A program made the translations under genes and the position numbers. Of a DNA stretch of 64,000 bases, positions 9,050-46,500 are shown piece by piece. The DNA is from Comamonadaceae bacterium (GTDB taxonomy: Bacteria > Pseudomonadota > Gammaproteobacteria > Burkholderiales > Burkholderiaceae_C). Below the pieces are notes generated by a model. That model was not told the origin of the DNA and ran no database searches. It saw only the letters and a program-made list of their open reading frames with translations. The DNA lies in contig JANPAS010000083.1 in the NCBI GenBank assembly GCA_031430035.1, positions 36,769-100,768 of the forward strand, written 5' to 3'. Position 1 is the stretch's first letter, and every line of letters starts with the position of its first letter.

Positions 9050-9098
9050 AAGATACTCCTTCAAGTTAAAGGGCTCATTGAAACTGCCTGTGAATAAA

Positions 9099-14861: not shown

Positions 14862-14877
14862 AGCCGTGGATAAAGCA

Positions 14878-16960: not shown

Positions 16961-18736
16961 ATGCTCATTTTACTTAAGCGCCTATGGGGTCACATCGCCC
17001 CGACCAGACGAATACAACTGGGAATTCTCTTTTGTCTGATGTTGGTCGCCTCGTTTGCAGAGCTATTCAGTATTGGCATGGTGCTGCCGTTTTTGGCAGT
17101 GCTGACCTCTCCAGAAATCATATACGATCATCGGCTTGTCAAACCCATAATTAAGTTATTTGACATTAAAAACCAGAGTGAGTTGTTGTTGCCGATCTCT
17201 TTATTGTTCGTATTGGCTGTCGTGTTCGCGGCCAGCGTTCGATTGCTACTGGTCTATATGCAAGCACGTATTAACTTGGTAATCGTAAATGAATTGGCTA
17301 CCAGTGCCTATCATAGAACGCTCAATCAACCTTATGCCGTACATATATCGCGGAATAGCAGTGAAGTTATTTCCGGTATTTCAAGCAAGGTAAGCGGCGG
17401 TATAGGCGGCTTGTTGGGAGCAGGCCTGACGCTCTTGAGTTCGCAATTATTGCTTGCTGCGATTGTCGTGACTTTGTTCATAGTTGACCCCGTTCTTGCC
17501 TTGTCGTCTTTTGTTGGCTTTGGTTCGCTTTATGCCCTTGTGATGGTAACGACAAAAAAACAGTTGGCAAGGGATAGCGAGTGCCTCAGCCAGGCTTCGA
17601 CAGAGGTCATAAAAGTACTTCAGGAAGGACTCGGGGGAATCCGCGACGTTTTGCTCGATGGGAATCAGTCAATATACACCGCTGCCTATCGGGAAGCGGA
17701 TATCAAGCTGAAAAATTCTCAGGCAAACATCCAAATTCTCAGCGTAGGCCCCCGGTACATTATTGAGGCGATAGGAATAGTTGTAATAGCGGTGATCGCA
17801 TATTCATTATCTACTCGCCCAGGAGGGCTAATAGCCGTGATCCCTCTCATGGGTACATTGGCACTTGGTGCGCAAAGGACGCTCCCCTTGTTGCAACAGT
17901 CATACTCTAGTTGGGCACTGGTACAAGGTAGCCGGGAATCACTGCGCGATGCTCTTGCGTTTCTTGATCAACCGATTCAACAGAACAACTTGGCGACTGA
18001 CTACGCGGCATCGATCCGGTTCGAACATGAGTTTCGCCTGAACAGTGTTTGTTTTCAATATAAAGCAACAGCCGCGAGCGTGCTGAAAAATTTTAGCCTT
18101 TCGATTCCAAAAGGAGCGAAAGTCGGATTTATTGGTGAAACCGGAAGCGGCAAAAGTACACTGATTGATATCATCATGGGCCTCTTGCTTCCGACCGACG
18201 GATATCTGATGGTTGACGGACAAAGAATCAATGCAGGCAATCACCAGGCATGGCAAAAGCATATCGCTCACGTGCCGCAAAACATCTTTCTATCTGACGC
18301 GAGCATTGCAGAAAATGTCGCGATTGGCATTTCGCGAGACAAAATCGACATGCCTCGCGTTCGGCTTGCGGCGCAGCGGTCTCGTATCTCCGATACGATC
18401 GAATCATGGCCCATGCAATATGACACTGCCGTTGGTGAGCGAGGCGTAAAACTTTCTGGTGGGCAGCGTCAGCGGATTGGTATCGCACGCGCACTTTACA
18501 AACAAGCCGATGTCGTCATCTTCGATGAGGCGACGAGCGCACTCGACAACGAAACCGAGGAAGCGGTCATGCAGGCGATCGATGGACTTGGGGGCGATTT
18601 AACAATCCTGATTGTTGCCCATCGTCTGACCACACTGAGGAACTGCTCACAGATCGTTGAGTTGCAAAACGGTGAGTTGAAGCGGGTCGGAAGTTATGCC
18701 GACATTGTTGGGAAAATCGGTCATTTGGGCGCTTAA
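16961..18736 (+). CDS. Fused TMD-NBD ABC exporter (MsbA/PglK-like)
   Basis: Six predicted N-terminal TM helices, then Walker A GETGSGKST, the signature LSGGQRQR and Walker B VVIFDEATSALD. The gene is visibly AT-richer than both neighbours. Confidence 0.85.
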   Translation: MLILLKRLWGHIAPTRRIQLGILFCLMLVASFAELFSIGMVLPFLAVLTSPEIIYDHRLVKPIIKLFDIKNQSELLLPISLLFVLAVVFAASVRLLLVYMQARINLVIVNELATSAYHRTLNQPYAVHISRNSSEVISGISSKVSGGIGGLLGAGLTLLSSQLLLAAIVVTLFIVDPVLALSSFVGFGSLYALVMVTTKKQLARDSECLSQASTEVIKVLQEGLGGIRDVLLDGNQSIYTAAYREADIKLKNSQANIQILSVGPRYIIEAIGIVVIAVIAYSLSTRPGGLIAVIPLMGTLALGAQRTLPLLQQSYSSWALVQGSRESLRDALAFLDQPIQQNNLATDYAASIRFEHEFRLNSVCFQYKATAASVLKNFSLSIPKGAKVGFIGETGSGKSTLIDIIMGLLLPTDGYLMVDGQRINAGNHQAWQKHIAHVPQNIFLSDASIAENVAIGISRDKIDMPRVRLAAQRSRISDTIESWPMQYDTAVGERGVKLSGGQRQRIGIARALYKQADVVIFDEATSALDNETEEAVMQAIDGLGGDLTILIVAHRLTTLRNCSQIVELQNGELKRVGSYADIVGKIGHLGA

Positions 18737-18819
18737 CTTGGCAAGCGTGCTACAGACGAAGGATTGCGAAATATGCAGATCGCTACGCTGCGCGAAGTAT
18801 TGTCGCTCTTCGCCGATTC

Positions 18820-19554
18820 ATGGATATTGGAGATTGTGAATTGAAGTTACTCATTTTGGCGGGCGGATTTGGCTCCCGCCTGCAGTCTGTGCTCCCCGAC
18901 ACGCCCAAGGCATTGGCACCGATCGGCGATGTACCCTTCCTTGCGCTCCAGCTTGAAAACTGGGTTGCCCAAGGAGTCCGCTCATTCATTTTTCTTTTGC
19001 ACCATCAGGCTGACCAGATCACCAACTTCCTGAGCAGTGCCAAGAGCGGTCTGCTTAAAGAGTGCGAGGTTCAAAGCCTGATTGAACCGACGCCGATGGA
19101 CACTGGGGGCGCGGTGGCTCATGCAGTTCGCGAACTCAATCTCAACGAGGATTTTCTCGTCACCAATGCCGATACCTGGTTAGGTTCAGGCATCCAGGAA
19201 CTGATCGCTTCGGCGGCGCCGGCGATAGCGGTCATCAGACTTGATGACTCCGGCCGCTATGGCAAGGTCCAATTTGACGACCGCCAACGCGTCACGGCGT
19301 TCACGGAAAAAAATGCCCTTGGCGAGCCAGGTTGGATCAATGCCGGGCTTTGCCGCTTGGGCGTCGACCTGTTCCGGACTTGGGATGGCGCCCGGTTTTC
19401 GCTTGAAAGACAAACCTTTCCGGAGTTGGCGCAACGAGGCGAATTAGGAGCCGTCATCATCAAACCAGATTTCATCGATATTGGAATTCCCGAGGACTAT
19501 CAACGATTTTGTCGTTGGATCGAAGGAGGTCGCAAAGGCAAATTATGCAAGTAG
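18820..19554 (+). CDS. Sugar-1-phosphate nucleotidyltransferase, HddC-like (heptose-1-phosphate guanylyltransferase type)
   Basis: LLILAGGFGSRLQSVLPDTPKALAPI (G-G-x-G-x-R-L loop). The short 244-aa single-domain architecture and the neighbouring HddA-like and GmhA-like genes fit this type. The nucleotide specificity cannot be read from the sequence. Confidence 0.6.
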   Translation: MDIGDCELKLLILAGGFGSRLQSVLPDTPKALAPIGDVPFLALQLENWVAQGVRSFIFLLHHQADQITNFLSSAKSGLLKECEVQSLIEPTPMDTGGAVAHAVRELNLNEDFLVTNADTWLGSGIQELIASAAPAIAVIRLDDSGRYGKVQFDDRQRVTAFTEKNALGEPGWINAGLCRLGVDLFRTWDGARFSLERQTFPELAQRGELGAVIIKPDFIDIGIPEDYQRFCRWIEGGRKGKLCK

Positions 19555-20933
19555 AAAAATTTCTCATCGCAGAAACCGCAACGCTGCGGGAAGCTCTGGC
19601 GCGCATCGAGCTCAACCACCATGGCATCATCATGGCAATGGATACGATCGGGCGGGTCACCGGCCTGGCCACAGATGGCGACATCCGGCGCGAGCTGCTG
19701 AATGGTCGGACGCTGGATGACATGATCTCGTCGTGCATCAACGCCGCGTTCATCTTTGAAGATCCTGCGACCCCTCGTGAAGCTTTGCTCAAGAAGCTCG
19801 ACCAACGCATTCGTGTCATTCCCTTGCTTGACGCCGATCGCCGACTGGTCGGCTTGGTCAGTCGCGACCACTTGCCGGTCCGGGATGAAGAAGCCGTGTT
19901 CGCGCGGGCCCGCGCGCCGGTACGGATCAGCTTTGGCGGCGGCGGCTCCGACCTGACCCACTATTTCTCCGGCCAGGATGGCGCGGTGATCAACACCACC
20001 ATCTCGCTCTACAGCCATGCGACGCTACGCGTGCGGGATGACGAGAAAGTCTCGATCCATTCACTCGATCTTAACGAATCACTGCATGCAGACAGCCTCC
20101 AACAAGCGCTGGCGAAGGAAGATCGTTTTGGCCTGATTAAGGCTCTGCTGCGTATCGTGCAACCGGATTTTGGCTTCGACCTCTACCTGCACTCAGACTT
20201 TCCGATGAATTCTGGCCTCGGCGGTTCCGCCGTCGTATCGGCGACCGTCCTTGGGTGCTTTAACCAGTTCAGGCTTGATCAGTGGGATCCGCATGAGTTG
20301 GCCGAGCTGGCGTTCCAAGCCGAACGACTGTACCTGGGTGTGGCAGGTGGCTGGCAAGATCAATATGCCACTGTTTTTGGCGGATTCAATTTCATCGAAT
20401 TCAGAATGGAGCAGAATATTGTTCACCCGCTTCGGATCCATCCCGACATCCTGCTTGAACTCGAGGAAAGTCTGATCCTCTGCGACACCGGAACCACTCA
20501 CGATTCGGGTAATATCCACGAAGATCAGCGGCGTCAGATGGAAGACCAAGCGATTCGAACGCATGTGAACACGAACGTCGAACTGTCCTACCGGATTCGC
20601 AATCAATTGTTGCGCGGTAAGCTGCACGATTTCGGTCACTCGCTTCACGATGCCTGGCAATTCAAACGGCAGTTCAGCAGCAAAATTTCCAATAATCGCC
20701 TCGACCAGATTTACGAAGAGGCTCGCGCCCATGGCGCACTGGGCGGGAAGTTGCTAGGGGCGGGGGGCGGGGGCTTCTTCCTCTTTTATGTACCACCATT
20801 CAAGAAGCACGAATTGATTCAACATTTGGAAGCATCAAAATTGCAGGTTAGGCCCTTCCGCTTCGAGCAGGATGGCTTGCGCGCATGGACCGTGCGCGAG
20901 CGCAAAAATCATATGGAAATGGAAAGTAAATGA
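19545..20933 (+). CDS. CBS-pair domain fused to a GHMP sugar kinase (HddA-like)
   Basis: N-terminal ~115 aa: ATLREALARIELNHHGIIMAMD..GRVTGLATDGDIRR ... IRVIPLLDADRRLVGLVSRDHL (two CBS repeats). Kinase part: RISFGGGGSDLTHYF, PMNSGLGGSAVVSATV (GHMP motif 2), GWQDQYATVFGGFNFIEF and GGKLLGAGGGGFFLFY. The start is set at the ATG at 19545, which overlaps the upstream stop. Confidence 0.7.
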   Translation: MQVEKFLIAETATLREALARIELNHHGIIMAMDTIGRVTGLATDGDIRRELLNGRTLDDMISSCINAAFIFEDPATPREALLKKLDQRIRVIPLLDADRRLVGLVSRDHLPVRDEEAVFARARAPVRISFGGGGSDLTHYFSGQDGAVINTTISLYSHATLRVRDDEKVSIHSLDLNESLHADSLQQALAKEDRFGLIKALLRIVQPDFGFDLYLHSDFPMNSGLGGSAVVSATVLGCFNQFRLDQWDPHELAELAFQAERLYLGVAGGWQDQYATVFGGFNFIEFRMEQNIVHPLRIHPDILLELEESLILCDTGTTHDSGNIHEDQRRQMEDQAIRTHVNTNVELSYRIRNQLLRGKLHDFGHSLHDAWQFKRQFSSKISNNRLDQIYEEARAHGALGGKLLGAGGGGFFLFYVPPFKKHELIQHLEASKLQVRPFRFEQDGLRAWTVRERKNHMEMESK

Positions 20934-22822
20934 AGATGAGAATCGGGCAATACGAGATCGGGTCTGGCCACACCTATGTCATCGCTGAAATTGGCAACAA
21001 TCACAACGGCAGTTTTGATCGCGCGATCGAGCTGATTGATCTGGCTCTGGACGCTGGCGCCGACTCGGTCAAGTTCCAGATGCGGCATCTGGACCAGATA
21101 TACCGTCAGCGCACCTTGCGCAAGGACGGCGAGGACTTGGGCACCGAATACGTTCTCGATCTGCTGCGAAGGTTCGAACTCACCGTCGACGAGCATCACA
21201 AGCTAGCCGAGTACTGTCGCGCCAAAGATGCGACCTATCTGTGCACGCCTTGGGATGCCGTCAGTGTGGACGTGCTCGAATCGTTCGGAGTCCCTGCTTA
21301 CAAGGTGGCATCGGCTGACCTTACCAACTTGCCCTTGCTCGACCACCTCGCTCAAACAGGGAAGCCCCTGATCCTGTCCACCGGAATGAGTACCCCTCAG
21401 GAAGTGAAAGCCACGGTCGCCTTCCTTGGCAAACGCAACGCACAATTTGCACTGTTACATTGCAACAGTACCTACCCAGCGCCGCTGCACGACATTAATC
21501 TGAAGTGGATTGAGCAATTACGCAAGATCCACCCACTGATTGGATATTCGGGTCACGAGCGCGGCATCAATGTTTCGCTAGCAGCCGTGGCATTGGGTGC
21601 GACCATCATCGAGCGCCATTTCACGCTGGACCGCGGGATGGAAGGTCCGGATCACGCAGCGAGCCTGACCCATTCGGAACTCAAGCGACTGATCGAAGGC
21701 ATCAGGGAAATCGAAGAATCGCTAGGGGATGGACTAACGCGAACCCTGTCCCAGGGCGAAATGATCAACCGCGAAAACTTGGGCAAAAGCCTGGTCGCCG
21801 CGACGGCGCTGGCCAAAGGTACCAGACTCACAGCTGCGCACATCAAGGTTCGCAGCCCCGGTCAAGGACTTTCGCCGCAACGATACGAAGAACTGCTGGG
21901 CAAGACACTGCAGCACGACATGGAGGAAGAAACTTTCTTCTTCCCTTCGGACCTGACCGAAACCCGTGTAGAGCCCCGTCCATATCGGTTTGATCGGCCT
22001 TGGGGAGTGCCAGTGCGCTACCATGACTTCGGAGAATATTCCGCTAGGATCAAACCGGACGTATGGGAATTCCACCTTTCTTACTCAGATATGGATCTTG
22101 ATCTAGCCAACTTCCTGAAGGGCACTTACGAAGCAGGTTTCGTGGTGCATGCACCGGAGCTGTTCTCTGGCAGCCGCCTGATGGACCTAGCAACGCCAGA
22201 TGAAGCCTACCGCGCTGAATCGCTGCGAGAAACCCAGCGCGTGATCGATATCACCAGGAACTTGAAGCGCTTCTTCCCGAACACGAAAAGACCCCAGATC
22301 GTCGCCAACATTGGCGGCTTCACGATGGATGAATTGCTTCCGACGGAGGTGATTCCAAGCTATTACGAACGCTTTGCTCGCAGCTTGGCCGAGTTGGACC
22401 TGGACGGAGTCGAGCTGATTCCGCAAACGATGGCACCGTTTCCCTGGCATTTCGGTGGCCAGCGGTATCAGAACCTGTTCGTCAAGATCGAGGAAATCGT
22501 TCATTGGTGCCAGAAGCTCAATCTGCGCATGTGCTACGACGTATCCCACAGCTCCCTGACCTGTAATCATCTTGGCTACGATTTCTATGAGTTCAGCAGG
22601 CAGATCGCCCCGTTGACAGCACACCTGCACCTCGGCGATGCTAGGGGACTCAATGGCGAAGGCTTACAGGTTGGTGAGGGTGATATCGACTTCGACCGCC
22701 TCGGCGCGATCCTGCGCCAGGGTTGCCCTGACGCTTCATTCATCCCCGAGATTTGGCAGGGCCATAAAAACAGCGGCGAGGGATTCTGGATCGCCATGGA
22801 ACGACTGGAGGGCAAGCTGTAA
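20930..22822 (+). CDS. Fusion protein: NeuB-type (PEP-condensing) ulosonic-acid synthase with SAF domain, plus a xylose-isomerase-like TIM-barrel domain
   Basis: Residues ~1-350: YVIAEIGNNHNGSFDRAIELIDLALDAGADSVKFQ, AYKVASADLTNLPLL, PLILSTGMST, LLHCNSTYPAP, GYSGHERG, IIERHFTLDR..GPDHAASL, then a SAF-like segment (KSLVAATALAKGTRLTAAHIKVRSPGQGLSP). Residues ~370-630: FHLSY..., VVHAPE, IVANIGGF, ELIPQTM, CYDVSH, HLHLGDA, IPEIW, typical of the sugar-phosphate isomerase/epimerase (AP-endonuclease-2) fold. Confidence 0.75.
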   Translation: MKMRIGQYEIGSGHTYVIAEIGNNHNGSFDRAIELIDLALDAGADSVKFQMRHLDQIYRQRTLRKDGEDLGTEYVLDLLRRFELTVDEHHKLAEYCRAKDATYLCTPWDAVSVDVLESFGVPAYKVASADLTNLPLLDHLAQTGKPLILSTGMSTPQEVKATVAFLGKRNAQFALLHCNSTYPAPLHDINLKWIEQLRKIHPLIGYSGHERGINVSLAAVALGATIIERHFTLDRGMEGPDHAASLTHSELKRLIEGIREIEESLGDGLTRTLSQGEMINRENLGKSLVAATALAKGTRLTAAHIKVRSPGQGLSPQRYEELLGKTLQHDMEEETFFFPSDLTETRVEPRPYRFDRPWGVPVRYHDFGEYSARIKPDVWEFHLSYSDMDLDLANFLKGTYEAGFVVHAPELFSGSRLMDLATPDEAYRAESLRETQRVIDITRNLKRFFPNTKRPQIVANIGGFTMDELLPTEVIPSYYERFARSLAELDLDGVELIPQTMAPFPWHFGGQRYQNLFVKIEEIVHWCQKLNLRMCYDVSHSSLTCNHLGYDFYEFSRQIAPLTAHLHLGDARGLNGEGLQVGEGDIDFDRLGAILRQGCPDASFIPEIWQGHKNSGEGFWIAMERLEGKL

Positions 22823-23418
22823 TGTCCCTTCTTTTGACTATCCACGCCGAAGTGGCGGCGTCCATCGCCGTCAAACAGGCGCTGCTGCAGGACGATGCGC
22901 TATTGACGCAGATCGAGGCCCTAGCAAGGCAGTGCGTGGCCGCACTTCGCGCTGGCGGAAAAATTATTTTCGCTGGCAACGGCGGAAGTTTCGCCGATGC
23001 GCAGCACTTGTCCGCCGAATTCGTGTCCCGCTTCAAATTTGACCGCGCGCCGCTAGCGTCACTGACGCTGGGCACCAACAATTCCGCCATCAGCGCAATC
23101 GGCAACGACTATGGCTACGATCAGGTATTTTCACGCGAACTGGAAGCGGTCGCCAAAGCGGGCGATGTGTTCATCGGCATTAGCACCAGCGGCAACAGCC
23201 CGAATATACTTGCTGCCGTCAACAAAGCCGCGGCACTGGGCATCGCCACGACCTGCTTGACTGGCCGTACTGGCGGCAAGCTGCTCGCAATGTGCAATTG
23301 CCTGTGCATGCCGTCCGATGACACTGCGCGCATTCAGGAAGCCCATATCACTGTCGGCCACATTATTTGCGGCTTGGTCGAGCAGATTTATTTTCCAGAA
23401 GGGAAAAGTGCCCTATGA
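22822..23418 (+). CDS. SIS-domain sugar-phosphate isomerase, GmhA-like (sedoheptulose-7-phosphate isomerase type)
   Basis: GGKIIFAGNGGSFADAQHLSAEF, LGTNNSAISAIGNDYGYDQVF, DVFIGISTSGNSPNIL and ARIQEAHITVGHIIC. The 198-aa length is typical of GmhA/DiaA. Confidence 0.75.
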   Translation: MSLLLTIHAEVAASIAVKQALLQDDALLTQIEALARQCVAALRAGGKIIFAGNGGSFADAQHLSAEFVSRFKFDRAPLASLTLGTNNSAISAIGNDYGYDQVFSRELEAVAKAGDVFIGISTSGNSPNILAAVNKAAALGIATTCLTGRTGGKLLAMCNCLCMPSDDTARIQEAHITVGHIICGLVEQIYFPEGKSAL

Positions 23419-24140
23419 GTAGTATTGTCGCCCTGATCCCCGCCCGTGCCGGCTCTAAGGGGGTTCCCCATAAAAATATCAAGCTCCTGGGCGGACGCCC
23501 CCTAATTGAATGGTCGATCAAGGCCTGCCTGAAATCCCAATTGATCGACCGTGTCATTGTTTCCACGGACTCACCTGAATACGCCGAATTGGCGATAGAA
23601 CTGGGGGCAGAGGCGCCTTTCTTGCGCCCCTCGGAAATTTCAGCCGACCGTTCGACTGATTACGATTTCATTGCGCACGCACTGGACTGGCTCGCTGCCA
23701 ACGGTGGCGAACCGCAGCATGTGGTGCACATCCGTCCCACGACACCATACCGCGATCCTGCTCTGATAGACCAAGCAATCAAGGTTTTTCTCAGCGAAGC
23801 TAAGGCCACGGCGCTGCGCTCGGTGCATGAAATGTCCGAGTCCGCTTACAAGACCTTCGAAATCGCACCGGCAGGCCAGCTCATGCGCCTAGGCAGCGAC
23901 AGCACTGCTCTCGACGCTGCCAATAACGCCCGCCAGCAATTTCCCGCCACCTACCAGGCCAACGGCTACGTGGACGTGCTTTCTTCCCGTTTCATCAGAA
24001 CCAATGGCCTGATTCATGGCGACTGGGTTATGCCTTTTATCACCCCCACCGTGATTGAGGTGGACACGATCGACGATTTTGTTCATCTTGAATTCTTGCT
24101 TGATCGCAATCGCGCATTTTTCGACAAATTATTTACCTGA
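23415..24140 (+). CDS. Acylneuraminate-type cytidylyltransferase (CMP-ulosonic acid synthetase family)
   Basis: IVALIPARAGSKGVPHKNIKLLGGRPLIEWSI and VHIRPTTPYR. The start is the ATG at 23415, overlapping the upstream TGA (ATGA). Confidence 0.75.
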   Translation: MSSIVALIPARAGSKGVPHKNIKLLGGRPLIEWSIKACLKSQLIDRVIVSTDSPEYAELAIELGAEAPFLRPSEISADRSTDYDFIAHALDWLAANGGEPQHVVHIRPTTPYRDPALIDQAIKVFLSEAKATALRSVHEMSESAYKTFEIAPAGQLMRLGSDSTALDAANNARQQFPATYQANGYVDVLSSRFIRTNGLIHGDWVMPFITPTVIEVDTIDDFVHLEFLLDRNRAFFDKLFT

Positions 24141-24148
24141 GGTTATTT

Positions 24149-25537
24149 ATGGCTGGACATGAATTTTCCCGGAGCCCACAGAAGGTTCCGTTTGTAAGCA
24201 CCGAACATCGCACTATCAAGACAGCGATTCCTGCTCCCGGCACCGAGCAGATACTCGCCACTCTGGATTGCTACGAATCGCGTTCCATGCATGGCCAGTT
24301 CCCGCTGATCTGGGACCGTGCGGTGGATTCCAGCGTGTTCGATATCGCCGGCAATCGCTGGATCGATTTCACGTCGACGATTTTTGTCGCCAATGTGGGC
24401 CACTCCAACCCCAGGGTAACGGCCGCCATGCAGGCGATGATGGATGCCCCGATCTACAGTTGCTATGCCTACCCAAACATTAAACGCGCCGAATACCTGA
24501 AGAAGCTGATCGAATTCGCCGGCCCTCCGTTCGAAAAGGCTTTCCTGCTGTCAGCCGGAACCGAAGCCACCGAGGCCGCGCTGAAACTGATACGCATGCA
24601 TGGCCAGAAAATCGGCAAGCGCCGCGGCGGCATCGTCTGCATTGAGGGCAACTGGCATGGCCGCACCATGGGTGCGCAAATGATGAGCAGCAACCTGACC
24701 CAGCGCGAATGGATCGGCTTCCAAGATCAGGATATCCATCACATTCCGTTCCCGTATGCTTGGGCCTTGAACGGGACTAGTCCGGAAGCCTTCCTCGAAG
24801 CGGGCCTGGCGCGTCTAGCCGCATCGGGAATCGACATCGAAAAGGATGTGTCGGGCTTCATGCTGGAAACCTTCCAGGGCTGGGGCGCTGTGTTCTATCC
24901 GAAGGAGTTTGTCCAGGCCATCGAAAAAGTGTGCCGTAAACACAATATCTTGCTCGCCTTTGATGAAATGCAGGCGGGATTCGGCCGCACGGGCCGCCGC
25001 TTCGGGTTTGAGCATTACGAAGTCACACCGGACCTGATCGCTTGCGGCAAAGGCATGGGCGGCGGTGTTTCCCTCTCCGGCGTGCTTGGCCGTGCAGAAG
25101 TCATGGATTTGCCGGATATCGGCAACATGAGCAGTACCCACTCCGCCAATCCGCTGGTCTGCGCTGCGGGCCTGGCGGTAATCGAGGAACTGGAACAGCG
25201 CGACCTCGTCAGCGAGGCGGCTCGCAAGGGAGAGATGCTGTTCGATGCCTTGACCGCGCTGCAGCAGCGTTTCCCTGACCGCATTTCCGCATTGCTTGGC
25301 AAGGGCTTGATTGCTGCCGTACTGTTCCGTTCCCCTGTCACTGGCGCCGCCGATGGAGCCTTTACCAGCCGGGTCGCCGAGCGCTGCATGCAAAAGGGCT
25401 TGCTGGTGGTGCATACTGGGCGAGAGTCGATCAAGATCGGCCCGCCACTGACCATCGCCGATCAAGCCTTGATGGAAGGTGTCGACGTACTGGGCGAGGC
25501 GATCACTGAAATCAGTGCGGAAGTGAACGCAGAATGA
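24149..25537 (+). CDS. Class III (omega-type) PLP-dependent aminotransferase
   Basis: LLSAGTEATEAALKL, GNWHGRTMGA, LAFDEMQAGFGRTGRRFGFEHYEVTPDLIACGKGMGGG (Schiff-base Lys) and STHSANPL. Confidence 0.8.
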   Translation: MAGHEFSRSPQKVPFVSTEHRTIKTAIPAPGTEQILATLDCYESRSMHGQFPLIWDRAVDSSVFDIAGNRWIDFTSTIFVANVGHSNPRVTAAMQAMMDAPIYSCYAYPNIKRAEYLKKLIEFAGPPFEKAFLLSAGTEATEAALKLIRMHGQKIGKRRGGIVCIEGNWHGRTMGAQMMSSNLTQREWIGFQDQDIHHIPFPYAWALNGTSPEAFLEAGLARLAASGIDIEKDVSGFMLETFQGWGAVFYPKEFVQAIEKVCRKHNILLAFDEMQAGFGRTGRRFGFEHYEVTPDLIACGKGMGGGVSLSGVLGRAEVMDLPDIGNMSSTHSANPLVCAAGLAVIEELEQRDLVSEAARKGEMLFDALTALQQRFPDRISALLGKGLIAAVLFRSPVTGAADGAFTSRVAERCMQKGLLVVHTGRESIKIGPPLTIADQALMEGVDVLGEAITEISAEVNAE

Positions 25538-25971
25538 TTAGCGCGATCCGGCATACCGGCCTGGTGGTAGCCGACCTTGAACGGGCGCTGCACTTTTGGT
25601 GCGATGCGCTCGGCTTCAAGGTGGTCAGGCAGATGGAAGAGTCGGGACCCCATATCGACGCCATGATGGGCCTGCACGATGTCCGTGTGACCACCGCCAA
25701 ACTGGCGGCGCCCGACGGCAACCTGATCGAGCTATTGCAGTTTCACTCCCATCCCGACCGGCCGCAGTGGGACGGCGCACCGTATTCGACCGGGTTCACC
25801 CATATCGCCCTGACGGTAGAAGACCTTGACGCACTGGTCGGCAAACTTGCGCCCCTAGGAGTCACTTTCCCGGCACCGCCGCAATATTCACCTGACGGTG
25901 GCGTCAAGGTGATTTATGCTAGAGGCCCCGAGGGGGTCCTCCTCGAACTCGTCGAAATATTGACCAAATGA
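25534..25971 (+). CDS. VOC (glyoxalase/bleomycin-resistance/dioxygenase) family protein
   Basis: IRHTGLVVADLERALHFWCDALGFKV ... FTHIALTVEDLDALVGKL ... GPEGVLLELVE: paired beta-alpha-beta-beta-beta modules. Confidence 0.7.
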   Translation: MISAIRHTGLVVADLERALHFWCDALGFKVVRQMEESGPHIDAMMGLHDVRVTTAKLAAPDGNLIELLQFHSHPDRPQWDGAPYSTGFTHIALTVEDLDALVGKLAPLGVTFPAPPQYSPDGGVKVIYARGPEGVLLELVEILTK

Positions 25972-26948
25972 ACCAGACAACTCACCAGAAACCCCAACAG
26001 AGTACGACAGCCTGTCCTCTCTGCGCATCGGAAAAGAGCGAAATCCTTGTCCAACAGCTGCGACGTGGCTATGGCATGGCGCGCTATTGCCCTGCCTGTG
26101 ATCATGGCTACTTGGTCCAGGAACAGGCCGTGGACGCCAAGGAGTATTACGGCGAACTGTATCGTCAAGAGTATTCCCATAATGCCGAGGCGGCAGCGAC
26201 CCATGCCCGGGAAATATTCCGGGTTTACAAGAACTATCAGCAGGATCGCTTGCATCATATTCTACCCCTCTTGACTGCCAGTTCGCGGCTGTTAGAAGTT
26301 GGTGCCTCCGCAGGACAATTCCTGAGTCATATCAAGCACAAGGTTGGGGAGGTAAATGCCATCGAGCTCGACAAAGCCTGCTGCGCCTTCCTGGGCAGCG
26401 ATCTCGGCATCGATGCGGATGTGGAATTCCTGGAAAACTCGCGCTTTGCCGACCAAACCTACGACGTGGTCTGTGCTTTTCAGGTGATAGAGCATGTCGA
26501 GCAGCCTGTGGCGTTCCTCAAAACCCTCCAGCGGGTCACGAAGAAGGGCGGGACAATCTTCATCGAGGCTCCCAATCTGCGCGATCCCCTGCTATCGGTG
26601 TGGGACGTGCCGACATATCGTAAATTTTTTTATCACAGCGCCCATCTCCATTACTTTACGGAGGCCTCCTTGACCAAGGTGGCACGAGATGCCGGTTTTC
26701 GCGCCGATCAGATAGAAATCAGTTTTACTCAGGACTACAACGTCCTGAATCATCTTCACTGGATCATGAACGATGGCCCCCAATCCGATTGCCATGTGGG
26801 CCTGAGTGAAATAAACCTGCGCGGCCCCAATCAAGAAATCGCGACTTGGTTAACCGAAGAAATGAGAGACGTGAATTGCCGCTACATTGCCAAGCTGGTG
26901 GCGGCGAAATGCACCTCCAACATGCTGATGAAATTGCACTATGAATAA
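25968..26948 (+). CDS. Class I SAM-dependent methyltransferase with N-terminal Cys4 zinc-ribbon
   Basis: CPLC...CPAC, then motif I LLEVGASAGQF, and YDVVCAFQVIEHVEQP / GGTIFIEAPN. Confidence 0.7.
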   Translation: MNQTTHQKPQQSTTACPLCASEKSEILVQQLRRGYGMARYCPACDHGYLVQEQAVDAKEYYGELYRQEYSHNAEAAATHAREIFRVYKNYQQDRLHHILPLLTASSRLLEVGASAGQFLSHIKHKVGEVNAIELDKACCAFLGSDLGIDADVEFLENSRFADQTYDVVCAFQVIEHVEQPVAFLKTLQRVTKKGGTIFIEAPNLRDPLLSVWDVPTYRKFFYHSAHLHYFTEASLTKVARDAGFRADQIEISFTQDYNVLNHLHWIMNDGPQSDCHVGLSEINLRGPNQEIATWLTEEMRDVNCRYIAKLVAAKCTSNMLMKLHYE

Positions 26949-27774
26949 CAAAATCGGTTTCATGCAAGGACGCCTCTCCCCCTTGGTGGACGGGAAAATA
27001 CAGGCCTTCCCCTGGGATACTTGGCAGCAGGAGTTTCCCGCGGCTCAGAGTTTGGGGCTGGGCCTGATGGAATGGACCTTGGATCAGGATCGGCTCTATC
27101 AGAATCCCCTGCTGACGCCCCAAGGCCAGCAGGAGATTCGCCGCCTGTGTCAGGCACATAGGCTGACCATTCCTTCGCTGACTGGGGACTGCTTCATGCA
27201 GGCCCCGTTCTGGAAAGCTGAACATCCTGTAAAGGCAGGCCTCGAGGCGAATTTCATCGCCATAGCCCGCGCCTGCGCTGCGGTCGGTATTGAAATGATC
27301 GTCGTGCCACTGGTTGACAACGGCAAGCTTGAAAATGATCAACAGGAGGATGCGCTGGTCGCCTTCATGCTGGATCAGGCAGACCTGTTTCAGAAGCTCC
27401 GCCTGCGCATCATTTTCGAAAGCGATTTCGTCCCGGATAATCTCGCACGCTTCATCGACCGCCTGCCAGCCGAAACCTTTGGTGTTAACTACGACATCGG
27501 TAACAGTGCGGCATTGGGATTCAATCCCGAGGCAGAATTCGCGGCATATGCTCCCCGTATCATGAATGTGCATATCAAAGACAGGATCCGTGGCGGAACC
27601 ACAGTCGCTCTGGGCAGTGGCAATGCCGACTTCCCGGCGGTCTTTAGTCTGCTACGAGACGCTGCCTACGGCGGTTACTTCATCATGCAAACTGCCCGTG
27701 CTGAAAATGGCGACCATGCCGGTGCCCTGAGTCGGTACATCGGTCAAATCGAGACTTGGACGAAAGGGCTCTGA
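26941..27774 (+). CDS. Sugar-phosphate isomerase/epimerase (xylose-isomerase-like TIM barrel)
   Basis: IGFMQGRLSP, LMEWTLD, IVVPLVDN, IIFESDF, VNYDIGNS, VHIKDR and YFIMQTAR: spaced barrel-strand motifs of this family. Confidence 0.65.
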   Translation: MNNKIGFMQGRLSPLVDGKIQAFPWDTWQQEFPAAQSLGLGLMEWTLDQDRLYQNPLLTPQGQQEIRRLCQAHRLTIPSLTGDCFMQAPFWKAEHPVKAGLEANFIAIARACAAVGIEMIVVPLVDNGKLENDQQEDALVAFMLDQADLFQKLRLRIIFESDFVPDNLARFIDRLPAETFGVNYDIGNSAALGFNPEAEFAAYAPRIMNVHIKDRIRGGTTVALGSGNADFPAVFSLLRDAAYGGYFIMQTARAENGDHAGALSRYIGQIETWTKGL

Positions 27775-27775
27775 T

Positions 27776-28537
27776 ATGCAACTTCAGTTGCAAGGGAAAT
27801 CTGTTCTGGTCACTGGCTCATCCAAGGGGATCGGCCGAGCCATCGCCGAGGCGTTTCTGGCTGAGGGTGCCGAAGTCGCATTCAATGGACGCAATGCCGA
27901 GGACCTTAAGCGTGTCATCGCAGACCAGATCGAGGGCAAAGCTATAGCCGTCGATGGCGATGTAAGCAAACCGCACGGTGCTCGTGAAGTAGTCAACGGT
28001 GTGCTCTCGGCATTTGGGAAGCTTGACGTACTGGTTTGCAATGTCGGCAGCGGTCGGTCAGTGCCTCCGGGCCTAGAGACTCATCAGGAGTGGTTGAAGA
28101 TTTTTGAGCAAAATCTGTGGAGCGCAACTAATATGGTCGAAGCCGCAAAGCATGCACTCATCAAAACCAAAGGTACGATAGTTTGTATTTCTTCTATTTG
28201 CGGTCAAGAGGTCATACTGGGGGCGCCCGTCACCTACTCATCTGCAAAAGCGGCCCTCAACGCGTATGTTCGCGGCATTGCTCGGCCGCTGGGGCAAGAC
28301 GGCGTGAGAATCAATGCCATCGCCCCCGGCAATGTCCTGTTCGAGAACTCTGTCTGGCAAAGAAAGATCAACGAGGATGCCGCTGCTGTCAAGCAGATGC
28401 TGGCGCGCGATGTGGCCCTGTCAAAGCTTGGTACGCCCCAGGATGTCGCCAATCTTGCGCTATGGCTGGCGTCTCCTGCGGCATCGTTTTGCACCGGCAG
28501 CATATTTGTCACGGACGGCGGGCAAGTCCGAAGTTAA
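27776..28537 (+). CDS. Classical SDR oxidoreductase (FabG-like)
   Basis: KSVLVTGSSKGIGRAIA (TGxxxGxG), NVGS, YSSAKAALNAY (YxxxK) and PGNV. Confidence 0.8.
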   Translation: MQLQLQGKSVLVTGSSKGIGRAIAEAFLAEGAEVAFNGRNAEDLKRVIADQIEGKAIAVDGDVSKPHGAREVVNGVLSAFGKLDVLVCNVGSGRSVPPGLETHQEWLKIFEQNLWSATNMVEAAKHALIKTKGTIVCISSICGQEVILGAPVTYSSAKAALNAYVRGIARPLGQDGVRINAIAPGNVLFENSVWQRKINEDAAAVKQMLARDVALSKLGTPQDVANLALWLASPAASFCTGSIFVTDGGQVRS

Positions 28538-28556
28538 GAAACAGATAAGGTGAAAG

Positions 28557-29390
28557 ATGGCTTTTGAGAAATTCGATCTGACCGGCAAGACCGCCCTAAT
28601 TACCGGCGCGGCCGGCTTGCTGGGCATGGAGCACGCGGCGGCGCTGTTAGAGAGCGGCGCGACGGTGGTGCTGACTGACATGAGCGCCACAGCGCTTGAC
28701 GCTGCAGCGCAACGCTTGAGTGAACGCCATGACCGCGCGCGGATCCTGACCACGGTGATGGATGTGACCGATCCAGCGGCCATAGGTGCTGTAGCGAAAA
28801 TGCTGTCCGGACGAGGTTTGCGCGTGGACATTCTGGTCAACAACGCAGCCATCGACCCCAAGGTTAAGGGCGATCATGGAGTTGTGGAGACGTCGCGCCT
28901 TGAACACTTCCCCTTGGATCAATGGAATCTGCAGGTGGCCGTCGGTCTGACCGGTGCATTCCTGTGCAGCCAAGTCTTTGGCAGCGCGATGTCCCAAGAC
29001 GGAAAAGGGGGGGTCATCCTGAACATCGCTTCTGATCTCTCGGTCTTCGCCCCCGACCAGCGGCTCTACCGCAAGGAGAGCTTGCCCGATGAGCTGCAAC
29101 CCGTGAAGCCGGTGACCTATTCGGTGATTAAGGCCGGACTGATCGGATTGACCCGTTATCTGGCCACCTACTGGGCTGACAAGGGCGTGCGATGCAACGC
29201 TCTCTCACCCGGTGGTGTCTACAACGGCCAGGGAGACGAATTCGTCCAGCGGTTGACCTCGCTGATTCCGCTTGGGCGGATGGCCGACAAGGAGGAGTAT
29301 CGGGCTGCGGTGCAGTTTCTCTGCTCGGATGCGTCTGCGTACATGAATGGCCAGAACATAGTCATGGATGGCGGTCGCAGTGTCCTGTAA
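28557..29390 (+). CDS. SDR oxidoreductase
   Basis: KTALITGAAGLLGMEHA, NNAA, YSVIKAGLIGLTRY (YxxxK) and PGGV. Confidence 0.8.
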   Translation: MAFEKFDLTGKTALITGAAGLLGMEHAAALLESGATVVLTDMSATALDAAAQRLSERHDRARILTTVMDVTDPAAIGAVAKMLSGRGLRVDILVNNAAIDPKVKGDHGVVETSRLEHFPLDQWNLQVAVGLTGAFLCSQVFGSAMSQDGKGGVILNIASDLSVFAPDQRLYRKESLPDELQPVKPVTYSVIKAGLIGLTRYLATYWADKGVRCNALSPGGVYNGQGDEFVQRLTSLIPLGRMADKEEYRAAVQFLCSDASAYMNGQNIVMDGGRSVL

Positions 29391-46491: not shown

Positions 46492-46500
46492 GACACTTCT

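What the first reader, a model, noticed from the sequence alone, without database searches (positions are those of the whole stretch)
18820..24140. Non-canonical sugar-activation cassette that interleaves GDP-heptose-type enzymes with a NeuB-type synthase and a CMP-transferase
Five translationally coupled genes make up this cassette:
- An HddC-like nucleotidyltransferase (18820).
- A CBS pair fused to an HddA-like GHMP kinase (19545).
- NeuB+SAF fused to a xylose-isomerase-like TIM barrel (20930).
- A GmhA-like SIS isomerase (22822).
- A CMP-NeuAc-synthetase-like cytidylyltransferase (23415).

Established pathways would sort these into two separate sets: GmhA/HddA/GmhB/HddC for GDP-D-glycero-alpha-D-manno-heptose, and NeuC/NeuB/NeuA for CMP-nonulosonates. 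Here the two sets are interleaved instead.

Several expected partners are missing from the cassette and from the whole window: the GmhB phosphatase, a NeuC-type hydrolysing 2-epimerase, and an N-acetyltransferase of the Pse/Leg routes.

Inference: one possibility is that the aldose fed to the NeuB-like synthase is produced by the heptose-type enzymes, which would give a keto-deoxy acid longer than nine carbons. The other is that the cassette makes some other undescribed CMP-activated ulosonic acid. Sequence alone cannot decide between these.
Basis: partly seen in the sequence, partly recalled or inferred. Interest (0 to 1): 0.8.

Follow-up and report, generated by a model that had tools for sequence, protein, structure and literature searches.

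The report
Widespread heptose-coupled ulosonic acid operon
This is a real operon, shared by hundreds of aquatic bacterial species, that welds seven-carbon-sugar (heptose) activation enzymes to a fused sialic-acid-type synthase; it probably makes an uncharacterised, possibly ten-carbon, acidic surface sugar, but no product has been measured.

Summary
The five ORFs exist exactly as described, with overlapping stop/start codons. They are the front of a longer conserved operon (16961-29390).

- **Distribution:** the NeuB-SAF-TIM fusion occurs in at least 591 species-representative genomes across many phyla.
- **Linkage:** a CBS-GHMP kinase sits directly upstream of it in 75 of 76 evaluable loci. 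This holds even in lineages only 43-48% identical.
- **Heptose enzymes look genuine:**
  - The SIS protein is 50% identical to Burkholderia GmhA.
  - The kinase and nucleotidyltransferase best match HddA and HddC.
  - A bona fide GmhB sits upstream in 22 of 59 complete sister cassettes. Its absence here is therefore optional, not a pathway feature.
- **NeuB domain:** the NeuB positions I recall as PEP/metal ligands are kept, but the Arg that I recall contacts ManNAc's N-acetyl group is lost.
- **Sister class:** a ~750-aa CBS-NeuB-SAF-TIM protein pairs only with a cytidylyltransferase. The CBS pair has therefore moved between synthase and kinase.

Best reading (about 0.45): one integrated route from sedoheptulose-7-P to a tailored, CMP-activated, heptose-derived (C10) ulosonic acid.

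Main rival (about 0.3): two separate donors, GDP-heptose plus a Kdn-like acid.

No product is shown. I found no paper describing the cassette. Mass-spectrometry reports of C10 ulosonic acids currently lack assigned genes.

The parts
12089..12469 (+). MarR/HTH_24-type regulator at the head of the + strand glycan operon. It is possibly associated with the module.
   Evidence: Pfam HTH_24/MarR. Homologues at 43-56% identity lie just upstream of the module in L002, L026, L029-31, L035, L036 and L085.
16961..18736 (+). ABC exporter with fused membrane and ATPase domains, resembling PglK/MsbA/HepA. It is a likely flippase or exporter for the lipid-linked glycan.
   Evidence: Pfam ABC_membrane + ABC_tran. 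Best NCBIfam match is PglK at 263 bits, far below its 1000-bit cut-off. An ABC gene precedes the cassette in 20 of 82 loci.
18820..19554 (+). Sugar-1-phosphate nucleotidyltransferase, HddC-like.
   Evidence: Pfam NTP_transferase. HddC model 126 bits vs cut-off 300. Best PDB match is Yersinia HddC 5xhw/6jq8, E = 3e-28. Adjacent to the kinase in 65 of 74 loci.
19545..20933 (+). CBS pair fused to an HddA-like GHMP sugar kinase.
   Evidence: Pfam CBS x2 + GHMP_kinases_N/C. The HddA model is matched full length at 250 bits vs cut-off 600. PDB matches: C. jejuni HddA 4n3o, E = 4e-59, and a putative sugar kinase 4usk (B. pseudomallei WcbL by my recollection, not shown in the output). Directly upstream of NeuB-TIM in 75 of 76 loci.
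20930..22822 (+). NeuB-type PEP-condensing synthase + SAF domain, fused to a xylose-isomerase-like TIM barrel.
   Evidence: Pfam NeuB, SAF, AP_endonuc_2. The NeuB positions I recall as PEP/metal ligands are conserved, while the position I recall as the N-acetyl-contacting Arg314 is Ser. AF2 model of the TIM domain has pLDDT 79; its best Foldseek hits are ketose 3-epimerases and UlaE, TM 0.6-0.67. 241 of 630 residues are >=97% conserved in 82 sequences.
22822..23418 (+). Sedoheptulose-7-phosphate isomerase (GmhA).
   Evidence: Pfam SIS_2. 50% identical to B. pseudomallei GmhA 2xbl, E = 6e-57. The AQH..EF, STSG.SPN, IQE and GH motifs are conserved. Present in 42 of 59 complete loci.
23415..24140 (+). 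NeuA/PseF-like cytidylyltransferase (CMP-ulosonic acid synthetase type).
   Evidence: Pfam CTP_transf_3. PseF model 138 bits vs cut-off 206. PDB NeuA matches E = 8e-28. Some CTP_transf_3 gene is found in every cassette variant.
24149..25537 (+). Class III (omega-type) aminotransferase.
   Evidence: Pfam Aminotran_3. Best PDB matches are GABA/PuuE, ornithine and putrescine aminotransferases. Paired with the CMP-transferase in 26 loci.
25534..25971 (+). VOC/glyoxalase-fold protein of unknown role.
   Evidence: Pfam Glyoxalase. Follows the class III aminotransferase in 25 loci.
25968..26948 (+). SAM-dependent methyltransferase.
   Evidence: Pfam Methyltransf_23/11. Found in 32 loci.
26941..27774 (+). 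Second, free-standing xylose-isomerase-like TIM barrel (TIM2).
   Evidence: Pfam AP_endonuc_2. Weak similarity to UlaE. Only distantly related to the fused TIM domain (hhalign probability 78%). Present in 50 of 59 complete loci.
27776..28537 (+). Classical short-chain dehydrogenase (SDR1).
   Evidence: Pfam adh_short. Conserved downstream of TIM2.
28557..29390 (+). Classical short-chain dehydrogenase (SDR2), highly conserved.
   Evidence: Pfam adh_short. Present in 56 of 59 complete loci at up to 90% identity.

Best explanation
The region is the front half of a horizontally spread, modular operon that makes a CMP-activated ulosonic acid built on a heptose.

**Proposed route**
1. GmhA (22822) converts sedoheptulose-7-P to D-glycero-D-manno-heptose-7-P.
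2. The CBS-regulated HddA-like kinase (19545) makes the 1,7-bisphosphate. This is the committed, feedback-sensed step.
3. A GmhB encoded elsewhere in this genome removes the 7-phosphate.
4. The HddC-like transferase (18820) makes an NDP-heptose, probably GDP-heptose.
5. The NeuB-SAF-TIM fusion (20930) frees or reshapes the sugar in its TIM domain. Its NeuB domain then condenses the aldose with PEP. The product is a 3-deoxy-2-ulosonic acid of ten carbons.
6. SDR1, SDR2, TIM2, the omega-type aminotransferase, the VOC protein and the methyltransferase tailor it by oxidation, epimerisation, amination and methylation.
7. The NeuA-like enzyme (23415) makes the CMP donor. Downstream transferases use it and the ABC protein exports the glycan.

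**Shown:** gene content, family assignments, conserved active-site residues, conserved synteny, and the domain hand-over of the CBS pair.

**Inferred:** every substrate and product, the role of the TIM domain, the nucleotide used, and the order of the tailoring steps.
For: - **Tight linkage.** The kinase is adjacent to NeuB-TIM in 75 of 76 evaluable loci. The one exception (L003) carries a transposase and a truncated SDR2. Other modules of the cassette recombine freely.
- **Deep linkage.** The link persists in far more diverged lineages. L088 (48% identity) has the kinase upstream. L093 (43%) has the order NT-like | CBS | GHMP kinase | NeuB-TIM | ... | CTP_transf_3.
- **CBS hand-over.** The CBS pair of the kinase is homologous (30-34% identity) to the N-terminal CBS pair of the 750-aa CBS-NeuB-SAF-TIM class, which has no kinase. 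The regulatory domain sits on whichever enzyme comes first.
- **Heptose identity is solid.**
  - GmhA is 50% identical to a solved GmhA, with the residues I recall as catalytic and Zn ligands kept.
  - Sister cassettes carry a GmhB that passes its curated cut-off.
  - The kinase and NT best match HddA and HddC.
- **Pattern of optional genes.** GmhA and GmhB are the optional genes; the kinase and NT are not. This is expected if host ADP-heptose enzymes can supply the first two functions but not the alpha-specific steps.
- **No other aldose source.** No NeuC/PseG-type hydrolase and no other aldose-producing enzyme is present in the window, so GmhA is the only aldose-producing enzyme seen in this cassette.
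- **Synthase pocket.** By my recollection, Arg314 of meningococcal NeuB contacts ManNAc's N-acetyl group. That position is Ser here, and other contact positions I recall differ too: E134D, N184S, F288N. This fits a 2-hydroxy, manno-type aldose.
- **Independent chemistry.** Mass spectrometry shows that CMP-activated C10 ulosonic acids exist in bacteria, with no genes assigned.
Against: - No chemistry was measured.
- The 750-aa sister class works with only a cytidylyltransferase next to it. NeuB-TIM can therefore draw on a common metabolite without kinase or NT.
- GHMP sugar kinases phosphorylate the anomeric carbon, which blocks the aldehyde NeuB needs. A release step is required, and no known NDP-sugar hydrolase is present. 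Giving that role to the TIM domain is speculation: its nearest folds are ketose 3-epimerases.
- Nine loci lack an NT next to the kinase.
- Some CBS-less relatives (L090, L094) have no kinase.
- All family scores are below the equivalog cut-offs.
- The 80 loci are the closest relatives only (66-85% identity) and are mostly metagenome bins. Part of the synteny therefore reflects shared ancestry.
Confidence: 0.45

Rival explanations
1. Two independent donor pathways are packed in one mobile cassette. NT, kinase, GmhA (and GmhB) make GDP-D-glycero-alpha-D-manno-heptose for a heptosyltransferase. NeuB-TIM plus the cytidylyltransferase make a nine-carbon Kdn-like acid from a common mannose metabolite. 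Both sugars end up in the same glycan.
For: - The 750-aa CBS-NeuB-SAF-TIM class needs only a cytidylyltransferase beside it.
- In Colwellia a bifunctional ManC lies just upstream of that pair.
- The four heptose enzymes alone form a complete, known pathway.
- Loss of the position I recall as the N-acetyl-contacting Arg fits mannose as well as heptose.
- A cited preprint reports that glycans combining heptoses and nonulosonic acids exist in Ca. Kuenenia.
Against: - Independent modules should separate at times. Yet no intact locus has NeuB-TIM of this class without the kinase (75 of 76), while neighbouring modules are swapped freely.
- The link recurs at 43-48% identity.
- The hand-over of the CBS pair from synthase to kinase is hard to explain if the kinase serves another pathway.
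- Some loci keep the kinase but no NT. That cannot yield a heptose donor unless an NT lies elsewhere.
Confidence: 0.3
2. A Kdn-9-P-like route on a heptose phosphate. GmhA makes heptose-7-P. NeuB condenses it directly with PEP to a C10 acid 10-phosphate. The multi-metal TIM domain acts as the phosphatase, and the cytidylyltransferase activates the acid. The kinase and NT divert part of the heptose-7-P to a separate GDP-heptose donor.
For: - Three catalytic domains (NeuB, TIM, CTP_transf_3) match the three steps needed, and they are the only constant set across both protein classes.
- The TIM domain has many invariant His/Asp/Glu residues at strand ends, including D-x-x-H and H-x-H-x-x-D.
- Endonuclease IV appears among the fold matches. 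From memory, it is a phosphoesterase of this fold.
- From memory, NeuB-family enzymes that use sugar 6-phosphates are known (animal Neu5Ac-9-P synthase, Bacteroides Kdn-9-P synthase).
Against: - The top fold matches are epimerases, not phosphoesterases.
- The model leaves the near-universal kinase unexplained and makes it compete for the same substrate.
- GmhA, not the kinase, should then be the constant partner, yet GmhA is present in only 42 of 59 loci.
Confidence: 0.12
3. An ordinary legionaminic, pseudaminic or neuraminic acid pathway whose hexosamine precursor enzymes lie elsewhere in the genome.
For: - NeuB and PseF/NeuA are the nearest curated families.
- Some loci carry aminotransferase, acetyltransferase and oxidoreductase genes.
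Against: - Scores are below the NeuB, PseI and PseF cut-offs.
- The position I recall as the N-acetyl-contacting Arg is lost.
- No NeuC/LegG/PseG, 4,6-dehydratase or acetyltransferase belongs to the conserved core.
- Several loci carry a second, canonical NeuB (36-41% identical) with its own cytidylyltransferase beside this cassette. The two are therefore not redundant.
Confidence: 0.05

Closest known systems
GDP-D-glycero-alpha-D-manno-heptose pathway (GmhA, HddA, GmhB, HddC). From memory, it is known in Aneurinibacillus, Campylobacter jejuni, Yersinia pseudotuberculosis and Burkholderia pseudomallei capsule or S-layer loci.
   Same: The same four enzyme families. Best structural matches are C. 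jejuni HddA, Yersinia HddC and Burkholderia GmhA. GmhB is present in sister cassettes.
   Different: - The kinase carries an N-terminal CBS pair.
- The genes flank and overlap a NeuB-type synthase.
- None reaches the equivalog cut-offs.
- GmhB is missing in this window.
- No GDP-heptose tailoring enzymes of the usual kind (extended SDR, cupin epimerase) belong to the conserved core.
CMP-nonulosonic acid pathways (NeuC/NeuB/NeuA; the Leg and Pse routes).
   Same: A NeuB-fold PEP condensation with the positions I recall as metal/PEP ligands kept, a SAF domain, and a NeuA-type cytidylyltransferase.
   Different: - No hydrolysing 2-epimerase and no PseG.
- No NDP-hexose 4,6-dehydratase or acetyltransferase in the core.
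- The synthase is fused to a TIM barrel.
- The position I recall as the N-acetyl-contacting Arg is replaced.
C. jejuni legionaminic acid route through GDP-linked precursors, with the CBS-containing nucleotidyltransferase PtmE (Schoenhofen et al. 2009, from memory; gene set listed in PMC4481668).
   Same: A GDP-type nucleotidyltransferase, a CBS regulatory pair, SDR-type oxidoreductases, and a NeuB plus CMP-transferase in one cluster. An NDP-sugar is made only to be released again before condensation.
   Different: - The CBS pair sits on a kinase, not on the transferase.
- The entry is by an anomeric kinase on a heptose phosphate rather than a mutase on glucosamine phosphate.
- No LegB/C/H/G.
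CMP-Kdn route via Kdn-9-phosphate (Bacteroides thetaiotaomicron and animals; from memory).
   Same: A NeuB-family synthase acting on a non-acetamido manno-configured sugar, then phosphatase and cytidylyltransferase. This is a good model for the two-gene sister class and for rival 3.
   Different: No KdsC-type phosphatase here, and the heptose enzymes are attached. A fused TIM barrel is not, to my knowledge, part of that pathway.
Kdo8N formation in Shewanella (oxidation then transamination of the finished ulosonic acid; from memory).
   Same: A precedent for amination after condensation. The class III enzyme here resembles omega-transaminases that act on terminal aldehydes of carboxylic acids, and dehydrogenases lie beside it.
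   Different: Different enzyme families. The stage at which amination occurs here is unknown.
C10 'deculosonic' CMP-acids seen by mass spectrometry in Magnetospirillum gryphiswaldense (PMC8157484; bioRxiv 10.64898/2026.04.20.719630).
   Same: CMP-activated alpha-keto acids with one carbon more than Leg/Pse. This is what a heptose plus PEP would give.
   Different: - That compound carries three nitrogens and three acetyl groups.
- No genes were assigned to it.
- I could not test whether that genome holds this cassette.

Membership tests
GDP-D-glycero-alpha-D-manno-heptose pathway | Sedoheptulose-7-P isomerase GmhA with its catalytic and Zn residues | tested here: met
   50% identity to 2xbl over 183 residues, E = 6e-57. 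The His, Glu, Gln and His positions and the STSG.SPN loop are conserved. The roles of these residues are from memory. NCBIfam scores are below cut-off.
GDP-D-glycero-alpha-D-manno-heptose pathway | HddA: heptose-7-P anomeric kinase | tested here: inconclusive
   Full-length match to the HddA model, but 250 bits vs cut-off 600. 4n3o E = 4e-59. It has an extra CBS pair. The substrate was not tested.
GDP-D-glycero-alpha-D-manno-heptose pathway | GmhB: heptose 1,7-bisphosphate phosphatase in the cluster | tested here: not met
   None in the 64 kb window. Present and above the TIGR00213 cut-off in sister cassettes, 22 of 59.
GDP-D-glycero-alpha-D-manno-heptose pathway | HddC: heptose-1-P guanylyltransferase | tested here: inconclusive
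   126 bits vs cut-off 300. Best PDB hit is HddC 5xhw. Nucleotide specificity is unknown.
NeuB / nonulosonic acid synthases | PEP- and metal-binding residues of the TIM-barrel synthase plus the SAF domain | tested here: met
   E25, K53, Q55, T110, K129, S132, S154, Y186, S213, H215, E234, H236 and D247 (N. meningitidis numbering) all align to identical residues. SAF by Pfam. Residue roles are from memory.
NeuB / nonulosonic acid synthases | Recognition of a 2-acetamido sugar (Arg314 of the SAF domain) and the curated equivalog score | tested here: not met
   Arg314 aligns to Ser, with an Arg one residue earlier. E134D, N184S and F288N also differ. NeuB 345 vs 400 bits; PseI 252 vs 340 bits.
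NeuB / nonulosonic acid synthases | Partner enzyme that releases the aldose from an NDP-sugar (NeuC, LegG or PseG) | tested here: not met
   The only Epimerase_2 gene in the window is WecB-type and lies 35 kb away in an FnlA/B/C-like set.
CMP-ulosonic acid synthetases (NeuA/PseF/LegF/KdsB) | CTP_transf_3 fold with NeuA-like sequence | tested here: met
   Pfam 81 bits vs cut-off 22.6. NeuA structures E = 8e-28. Below the PseF equivalog cut-off, 138 vs 206.
Xylose-isomerase-like TIM barrels (ketose 3-epimerase / UlaE group) | Fold, and the metal-ligand pattern at the barrel's C-terminal face | tested here: inconclusive
   Pfam AP_endonuc_2 71 bits. Foldseek TM 0.6-0.67 at 14-16% identity. Invariant E, D-x-x-H, H-x-H-x-x-D and E are present, but with extra invariant His residues.
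Ten-carbon (deculosonic) CMP-acids | Product with a C10 backbone | not testable with these tools
   Needs DMB-LC-MS/MS or NMR of a cassette-bearing strain, or of an in vitro reaction.

The most novel reading that the evidence does not exclude
This operon is the missing genetic basis for ulosonic acids longer than nine carbons. A NeuB-SAF-TIM synthase condenses PEP with a D-glycero-D-manno-heptose made by dedicated GmhA/HddA/HddC-type enzymes. That would give a family of aminated or methylated CMP-deculosonic acids. These would decorate the surfaces of hundreds of freshwater and marine bacterial species, including Cyanobium, SAR86, saprophytic Leptospira and many Burkholderiales.
Probability: 0.45. 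Interest if true: 0.85.

Novelty: new variant of a known kind. Interest (0 to 1): 0.7.

Why it matters
- **New sugar class.** Sialic-acid-like sugars shape phage, predator and immune recognition of bacterial surfaces. All characterised members have eight or nine carbons and come from a few known routes.
- **Large unnamed family.** The survey shows a conserved, mobile gene set that curated annotation models do not name. It occurs in at least 591 species genomes. The TIM domain alone has 580 distinct 50%-identity clusters.
- **An open question becomes testable.** Two mass-spectrometry studies report C10 CMP-ulosonic acids but assign no genes. If the heptose link is real, this operon gives that question a concrete, testable gene set.
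- **New enzyme types.** It would also define a TIM-fused PEP-condensing synthase and a CBS-gated heptose kinase.
- **Value even if the product is C9.** The NeuB-SAF-TIM fusion and its two-gene form in Colwellia, Pseudoalteromonas and Marinomonas would still be an uncharacterised route to a CMP-acid from central metabolism.

Tried and rejected
- **Bradyrhizose (a C10 bicyclic sugar) as the product.** Rejected: its candidate cluster is built on a dTDP-glucose 4,6-dehydratase and has no NeuB.
- **Canonical Leg pathway with PtmA/E/F.** The published gene table shows PtmF as an oxidoreductase and PtmE as a nucleotidyltransferase, with LegB/C/H/G also present. This cassette has none of LegB/C/H/G.
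- **The window's Epimerase_2 as a hidden NeuC.** Rejected: it is WecB-type and sits in an FnlA/B/C-like set.
- **A hidden GmhB in the window.** Rejected by tblastn.
- **The fused TIM domain as a duplicate of TIM2.** They share only a C-terminal motif (hhalign probability 78%).
- **Sequence search of the TIM domain against solved structures.** It gave only MJ1311 at E = 1e-3.
- **Literature.** Nine searches with combinations of NeuB, GHMP kinase, heptose, nonulosonic, xylose isomerase-like, Kdo8N and deculosonic found no paper on this cassette. One of them was too broad to be useful.
- **Magnetospirillum gryphiswaldense.** I could not test whether it carries the cassette. The single genome-collection scan returns only the best 80 of at least 591 matches.
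- **Promoter and terminator scan.** It showed nothing above chance inside the operon.

Full report
**1. The observation**

The window carries one long + strand gene string from 12089 to 60576. Pfam gives the stated domains:

| Coordinates | Domains |
|---|---|
| 18820-19554 | NTP_transferase |
| 19545-20933 | two CBS + GHMP kinase N and C |
| 20930-22822 | NeuB + SAF + AP_endonuc_2 |
| 22822-23418 | SIS_2 |
| 23415-24140 | CTP_transf_3 |

- Stop and start codons overlap by 10, 4, 1 and 4 nt, and tight spacing continues for six more genes.
- Promoter- and terminator-like matches inside the string are not above the shuffled expectation.
- The nearest NCBIfam models are HddC, HddA, NeuB/PseI, GmhA and PseF. 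All score below the curated equivalog cut-offs. None of the five would be named as a known enzyme by those rules.

**2. The 'missing partners'**

- I scanned the candidate ORFs I picked out across the window (from >=80-150 aa ORF listings) against Pfam.
- No GmhB-type HAD phosphatase is present. tblastn with 29 GmhB sequences taken from sister cassettes found nothing better than E = 0.1.
- The one Epimerase_2 gene (59452-60576) passes the WecB cut-off (245 vs 210 bits) and fails NeuC (76 vs 236). It sits behind FnlA- and RmlD-like genes.
- No hexapeptide or GNAT acetyltransferase was found.
- The host is a proteobacterium, judged from BamE, HprK, PtsN, Fur and H-NS genes at 6-9 kb.

**3. The unit is larger and very widespread**

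- A search of 5.8 billion proteins returned thousands of hits. The best 120 are all 77-100% identical with the same NeuB-SAF-TIM architecture. They are annotated only as 'N-acetylneuraminate synthase family' or 'TIM barrel protein'.
- A scan of one genome per species found at least 591 genomes with a relative.
- The best 80 (66-85% identical) come from Beta-, Gamma-, Alpha- and Deltaproteobacteria, Cyanobium, Bacteroidota, saprophytic Leptospira, SAR86, Chlorobium, Nitrospinota, Planctomycetota, Verrucomicrobiota and Chlamydiota. Many are metagenome bins whose labels should not be trusted in detail.
- This identity across phyla implies horizontal spread.

Synteny by tblastn and ORF clustering:

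| Feature | Count |
|---|---|
| CBS-GHMP kinase directly upstream of NeuB-TIM | 75 of 76 evaluable loci |
| NT gene next to the kinase | 65 of 74 |
| SIS gene (complete loci) | 42 of 59 |
| GmhB-like HAD, directly upstream of the NT (complete loci) | 22 of 59 |
| TIM2 (complete loci) | 50 of 59 |
| SDR2 (complete loci) | 56 of 59 |

- The single exception for the kinase, Njordibacter L003, carries a transposase and a truncated SDR2.
- The HAD of L002 passes the GmhB model (195 vs 149.6 bits).
- The conserved operon in the window therefore runs from about 16961 to 29390. The lack of GmhB is a dispensable-gene pattern, not a pathway feature.

**4. A modular tailoring slot**

Between the synthase and TIM2/SDR genes the cassette varies. 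A CTP_transf_3 gene of one of three subtypes is always present. It is paired with one of the following:
- a class III aminotransferase plus VOC protein (26 loci, including the window);
- a class IV, BCAT-like aminotransferase (23 loci);
- a DegT aminotransferase, with GFO/IDH/MocA oxidoreductase and sometimes a PglD-like acetyltransferase (12 loci);
- an extra SDR;
- a GFO oxidoreductase with a pyruvyl transferase.

Three unrelated aminotransferase families thus fill the same slot. Two inferences follow: the products form a series of related amino or keto derivatives, and each cytidylyltransferase subtype is matched to its derivative. The window's class III enzyme is closest to GABA, ornithine and putrescine omega-transaminases. 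Those enzymes aminate terminal aldehydes of carboxylic acids.

**5. What the individual proteins look like**

- **SIS protein.** It is 50% identical to Burkholderia pseudomallei GmhA (2xbl, E = 6e-57). It keeps the AQH..EF, STSG.SPN, IQE and GH motifs. From memory, these hold the zinc, catalytic and phosphate-binding residues.
- **Kinase.** It matches C. jejuni HddA (4n3o, E = 4e-59) and a 'putative sugar kinase' (4usk), which by my recollection is Burkholderia WcbL, over its whole catalytic part.
- **NT.** It matches Yersinia HddC (5xhw, E = 3e-28).
- **Cytidylyltransferase.** It matches NeuA structures.
- **NeuB domain.** It aligns with meningococcal NeuB over 325 residues (E about 1e-50).
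  - Every residue I recall as a metal or PEP ligand is identical.
  - Arg314 aligns to Ser, with an Arg one position earlier. This is the position altered in entries 4ipi and 4ipj. From memory, it contacts the N-acetyl group.
  - E134, N184 and F288 are replaced by D, S and N.
  - These changes are invariant in 82 family members and are shared by the 750-aa class.
  - This argues against a 2-acetamido substrate.
- **TIM domain.**
  - It has no close solved relative by sequence.
  - An AF2 model (pLDDT 79) is nearest to ketose 3-epimerases and UlaE (TM 0.6-0.67, 14-16% identity). Endonuclease IV and MbnB rank lower.
  - Three invariant family-specific loops are the least confident parts of the model.

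**6. The sister classes**

- A profile-free search with the TIM domain against 1.84 billion cluster representatives found 580 clusters at E <= 1e-10. By my hand tally of the listed lengths, about 44 of the best 150 are 700-777 aa and about 25 are 597-678 aa.
- **The long class is CBS-NeuB-SAF-TIM.**
  - Four independent contexts were read, including a Colwellia isolate genome. In each it forms a two-gene module with a CTP_transf_3 gene directly upstream.
  - These sit inside ordinary Wzx/Wzy polysaccharide loci, with no kinase, HddC-like NT, SIS, TIM2 or SDR pair.
  - In Colwellia a bifunctional ManC precedes the pair.
  - This class occurs in Colwellia, Paraglaciecola, Glaciecola, Pseudoalteromonas and Marinomonas.
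- **Short-class relatives of the window protein vary.**
  - L088 (48% identical) has the kinase upstream.
  - L093 (43%) has NT-like | free-standing CBS gene | GHMP kinase | NeuB-TIM | methyltransferase-like | CTP_transf_3.
  - L090 and L094 have no kinase.
- **The CBS pair moves.** The CBS pair of the window kinase is homologous to the N-terminal CBS pair of the long class (30-34% identity). The order CBS, (kinase), NeuB-TIM is constant. The CBS pair ends up fused to whichever catalytic unit follows it.

**7. Interpretation**

Two facts pull in opposite directions.
- The two-gene class shows that NeuB-TIM plus a cytidylyltransferase can make a CMP-acid from a common metabolite.
- Wherever the CBS pair is not on the synthase, a GHMP kinase usually stands between them. 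That link survives extensive module swapping and deep divergence.

My reasoning from these facts:
- A regulatory CBS pair is typically found on the committed enzyme of such routes. From memory, examples are KdsD/KpsF for Kdo and PtmE for legionaminic acid. Its transfer to the kinase suggests the kinase became the first step of the same pathway.
- GmhA and GmhB, which are specific for heptose phosphates, are part of the cassette. They are dispensable exactly where a host ADP-heptose pathway could replace them.
- From this I infer that the substrate stream is D-glycero-D-manno-heptose. This sugar is mannose extended by one CHOH group. It would fit a synthase pocket built for a 2-hydroxy manno sugar and would give a ten-carbon 3-deoxy-2-ulosonic acid.

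The weak point is the release of the aldehyde after anomeric phosphorylation or nucleotidylation. I assign it provisionally to the fused TIM domain, without direct support.

I rate the readings as follows:

| Reading | Confidence |
|---|---|
| Integrated heptose-to-acid route | 0.45 |
| Two-donor reading | 0.30 |
| Direct heptose-7-P condensation with TIM as phosphatase | 0.12 |
| Canonical nonulosonic acid pathway | 0.05 |

**8. Comparison with the literature**

- I found no paper describing this cassette or the NeuB-TIM fusion. Subscription-only papers are not covered by the library.
- Kleikamp et al. 2020 (PMC8157484) and van Ede et al. 2026 (bioRxiv 10.64898/2026.04.20.719630) report DMB-MS and MSn evidence for CMP-activated C10 ulosonic acids in Magnetospirillum gryphiswaldense. 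Neither assigns genes.
- That compound has three nitrogens and three acetyl groups, so it need not be the product of this cassette type.
- It does show that such acids exist and that their biosynthesis is an open question.

**9. Verdict**

- The system is a new variant of CMP-ulosonic acid biosynthesis with unusually broad distribution.
- The product is unknown and must be measured.

Noticed in passing
L084 7139-10098; L085 9311-12256; L091 4891-7828; L092 8306-11253: A two-gene module: CTP_transf_3 plus a ~750-aa CBS-NeuB-SAF-TIM protein. It lies in marine polysaccharide loci (Colwellia, Paraglaciecola, Pseudoalteromonas, Marinomonas), with no kinase, NT or SIS. In Colwellia a ManC gene lies directly upstream. 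This looks like an uncharacterised minimal route to a CMP-acid.
   Followed up: partly
window 19545-19900 vs L084 7840-8172, L091 5603-5914, L093 623-973: The CBS pair occurs in three states: fused to the kinase, fused to the synthase, or as a free-standing gene. It is always in the same position ahead of the (kinase)-NeuB-TIM unit.
   Followed up: partly
L008 10109-11098; L044 13359-14627; window 24149-25537: Three unrelated aminotransferase families (class IV BCAT-like, DegT, class III) occupy the same slot beside the cytidylyltransferase in different cassette variants.
   Followed up: partly
L012 16671-18488 and homologues in 12 loci: A conserved ~600-aa protein with no Pfam match follows SDR2 in twelve cassettes. 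It is a candidate dedicated transferase or polymerase for the acid. It is not present in the window.
   Followed up: no
window 38777-49171: A second sugar pathway, suggesting a branched, N-formylated deoxysugar. It contains a 4,6-dehydratase-like gene, an RmlC-like epimerase, a C-methyltransferase, a DegT aminotransferase, an N-formyltransferase, a CmcI-like methyltransferase, an NDP-sugar transferase, a second DegT-family protein and a split transketolase pair.
   Followed up: no
window 57582-60576: An FnlA-like gene (576 bits vs cut-off 730), an RmlD-like gene and a WecB-type 2-epimerase, resembling a UDP-L-FucNAc-type set. The same set appears at the start of the Njordibacter locus L003.
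   Followed up: partly
window 60606-61130 (-) and 61127-63960 (-): A NusG paralogue (possible RfaH-like antiterminator) next to a convergent rmlC-rmlA-rmlD-rmlB set at the end of the glycan island.
   Followed up: no
window 12466-16946: An epimerase, ManC, a GDP-fucose-synthase-like gene and Gmd are inserted between the MarR-type regulator and the ABC exporter. In L002 those two genes are adjacent. The ORF call at 14788 (TTG) probably starts too early.
   Followed up: no
L003 18020-19770: The only locus without the kinase and NT has a truncated SDR2 followed by an IS (rve) transposase. It looks like a decaying copy.
   Followed up: partly
window 21965-22819 (TIM domain residues 157-166, 226-238, 264-269): The three most conserved family-specific loops (PFPWHFGGQR, ARGLNGEGLQVGE, WQGHKN) are the least confident parts of the AF2 model. 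They are possibly a lid or an interface with the NeuB domain.
   Followed up: no
L011, L012, L029, L034, L049, L060, L065, L068, L072: Several loci carry a second, canonical NeuB (31-41% identical). In some of them (for example L011, L029, L065, L072) a second cytidylyltransferase gene also lies nearby. Two distinct ulosonic acid pathways may therefore coexist in one glycan locus.
   Followed up: no
window 8672-9064 (-): An H-NS-family gene lies immediately outside the glycan island, beside ptsN and hprK.
   Followed up: no
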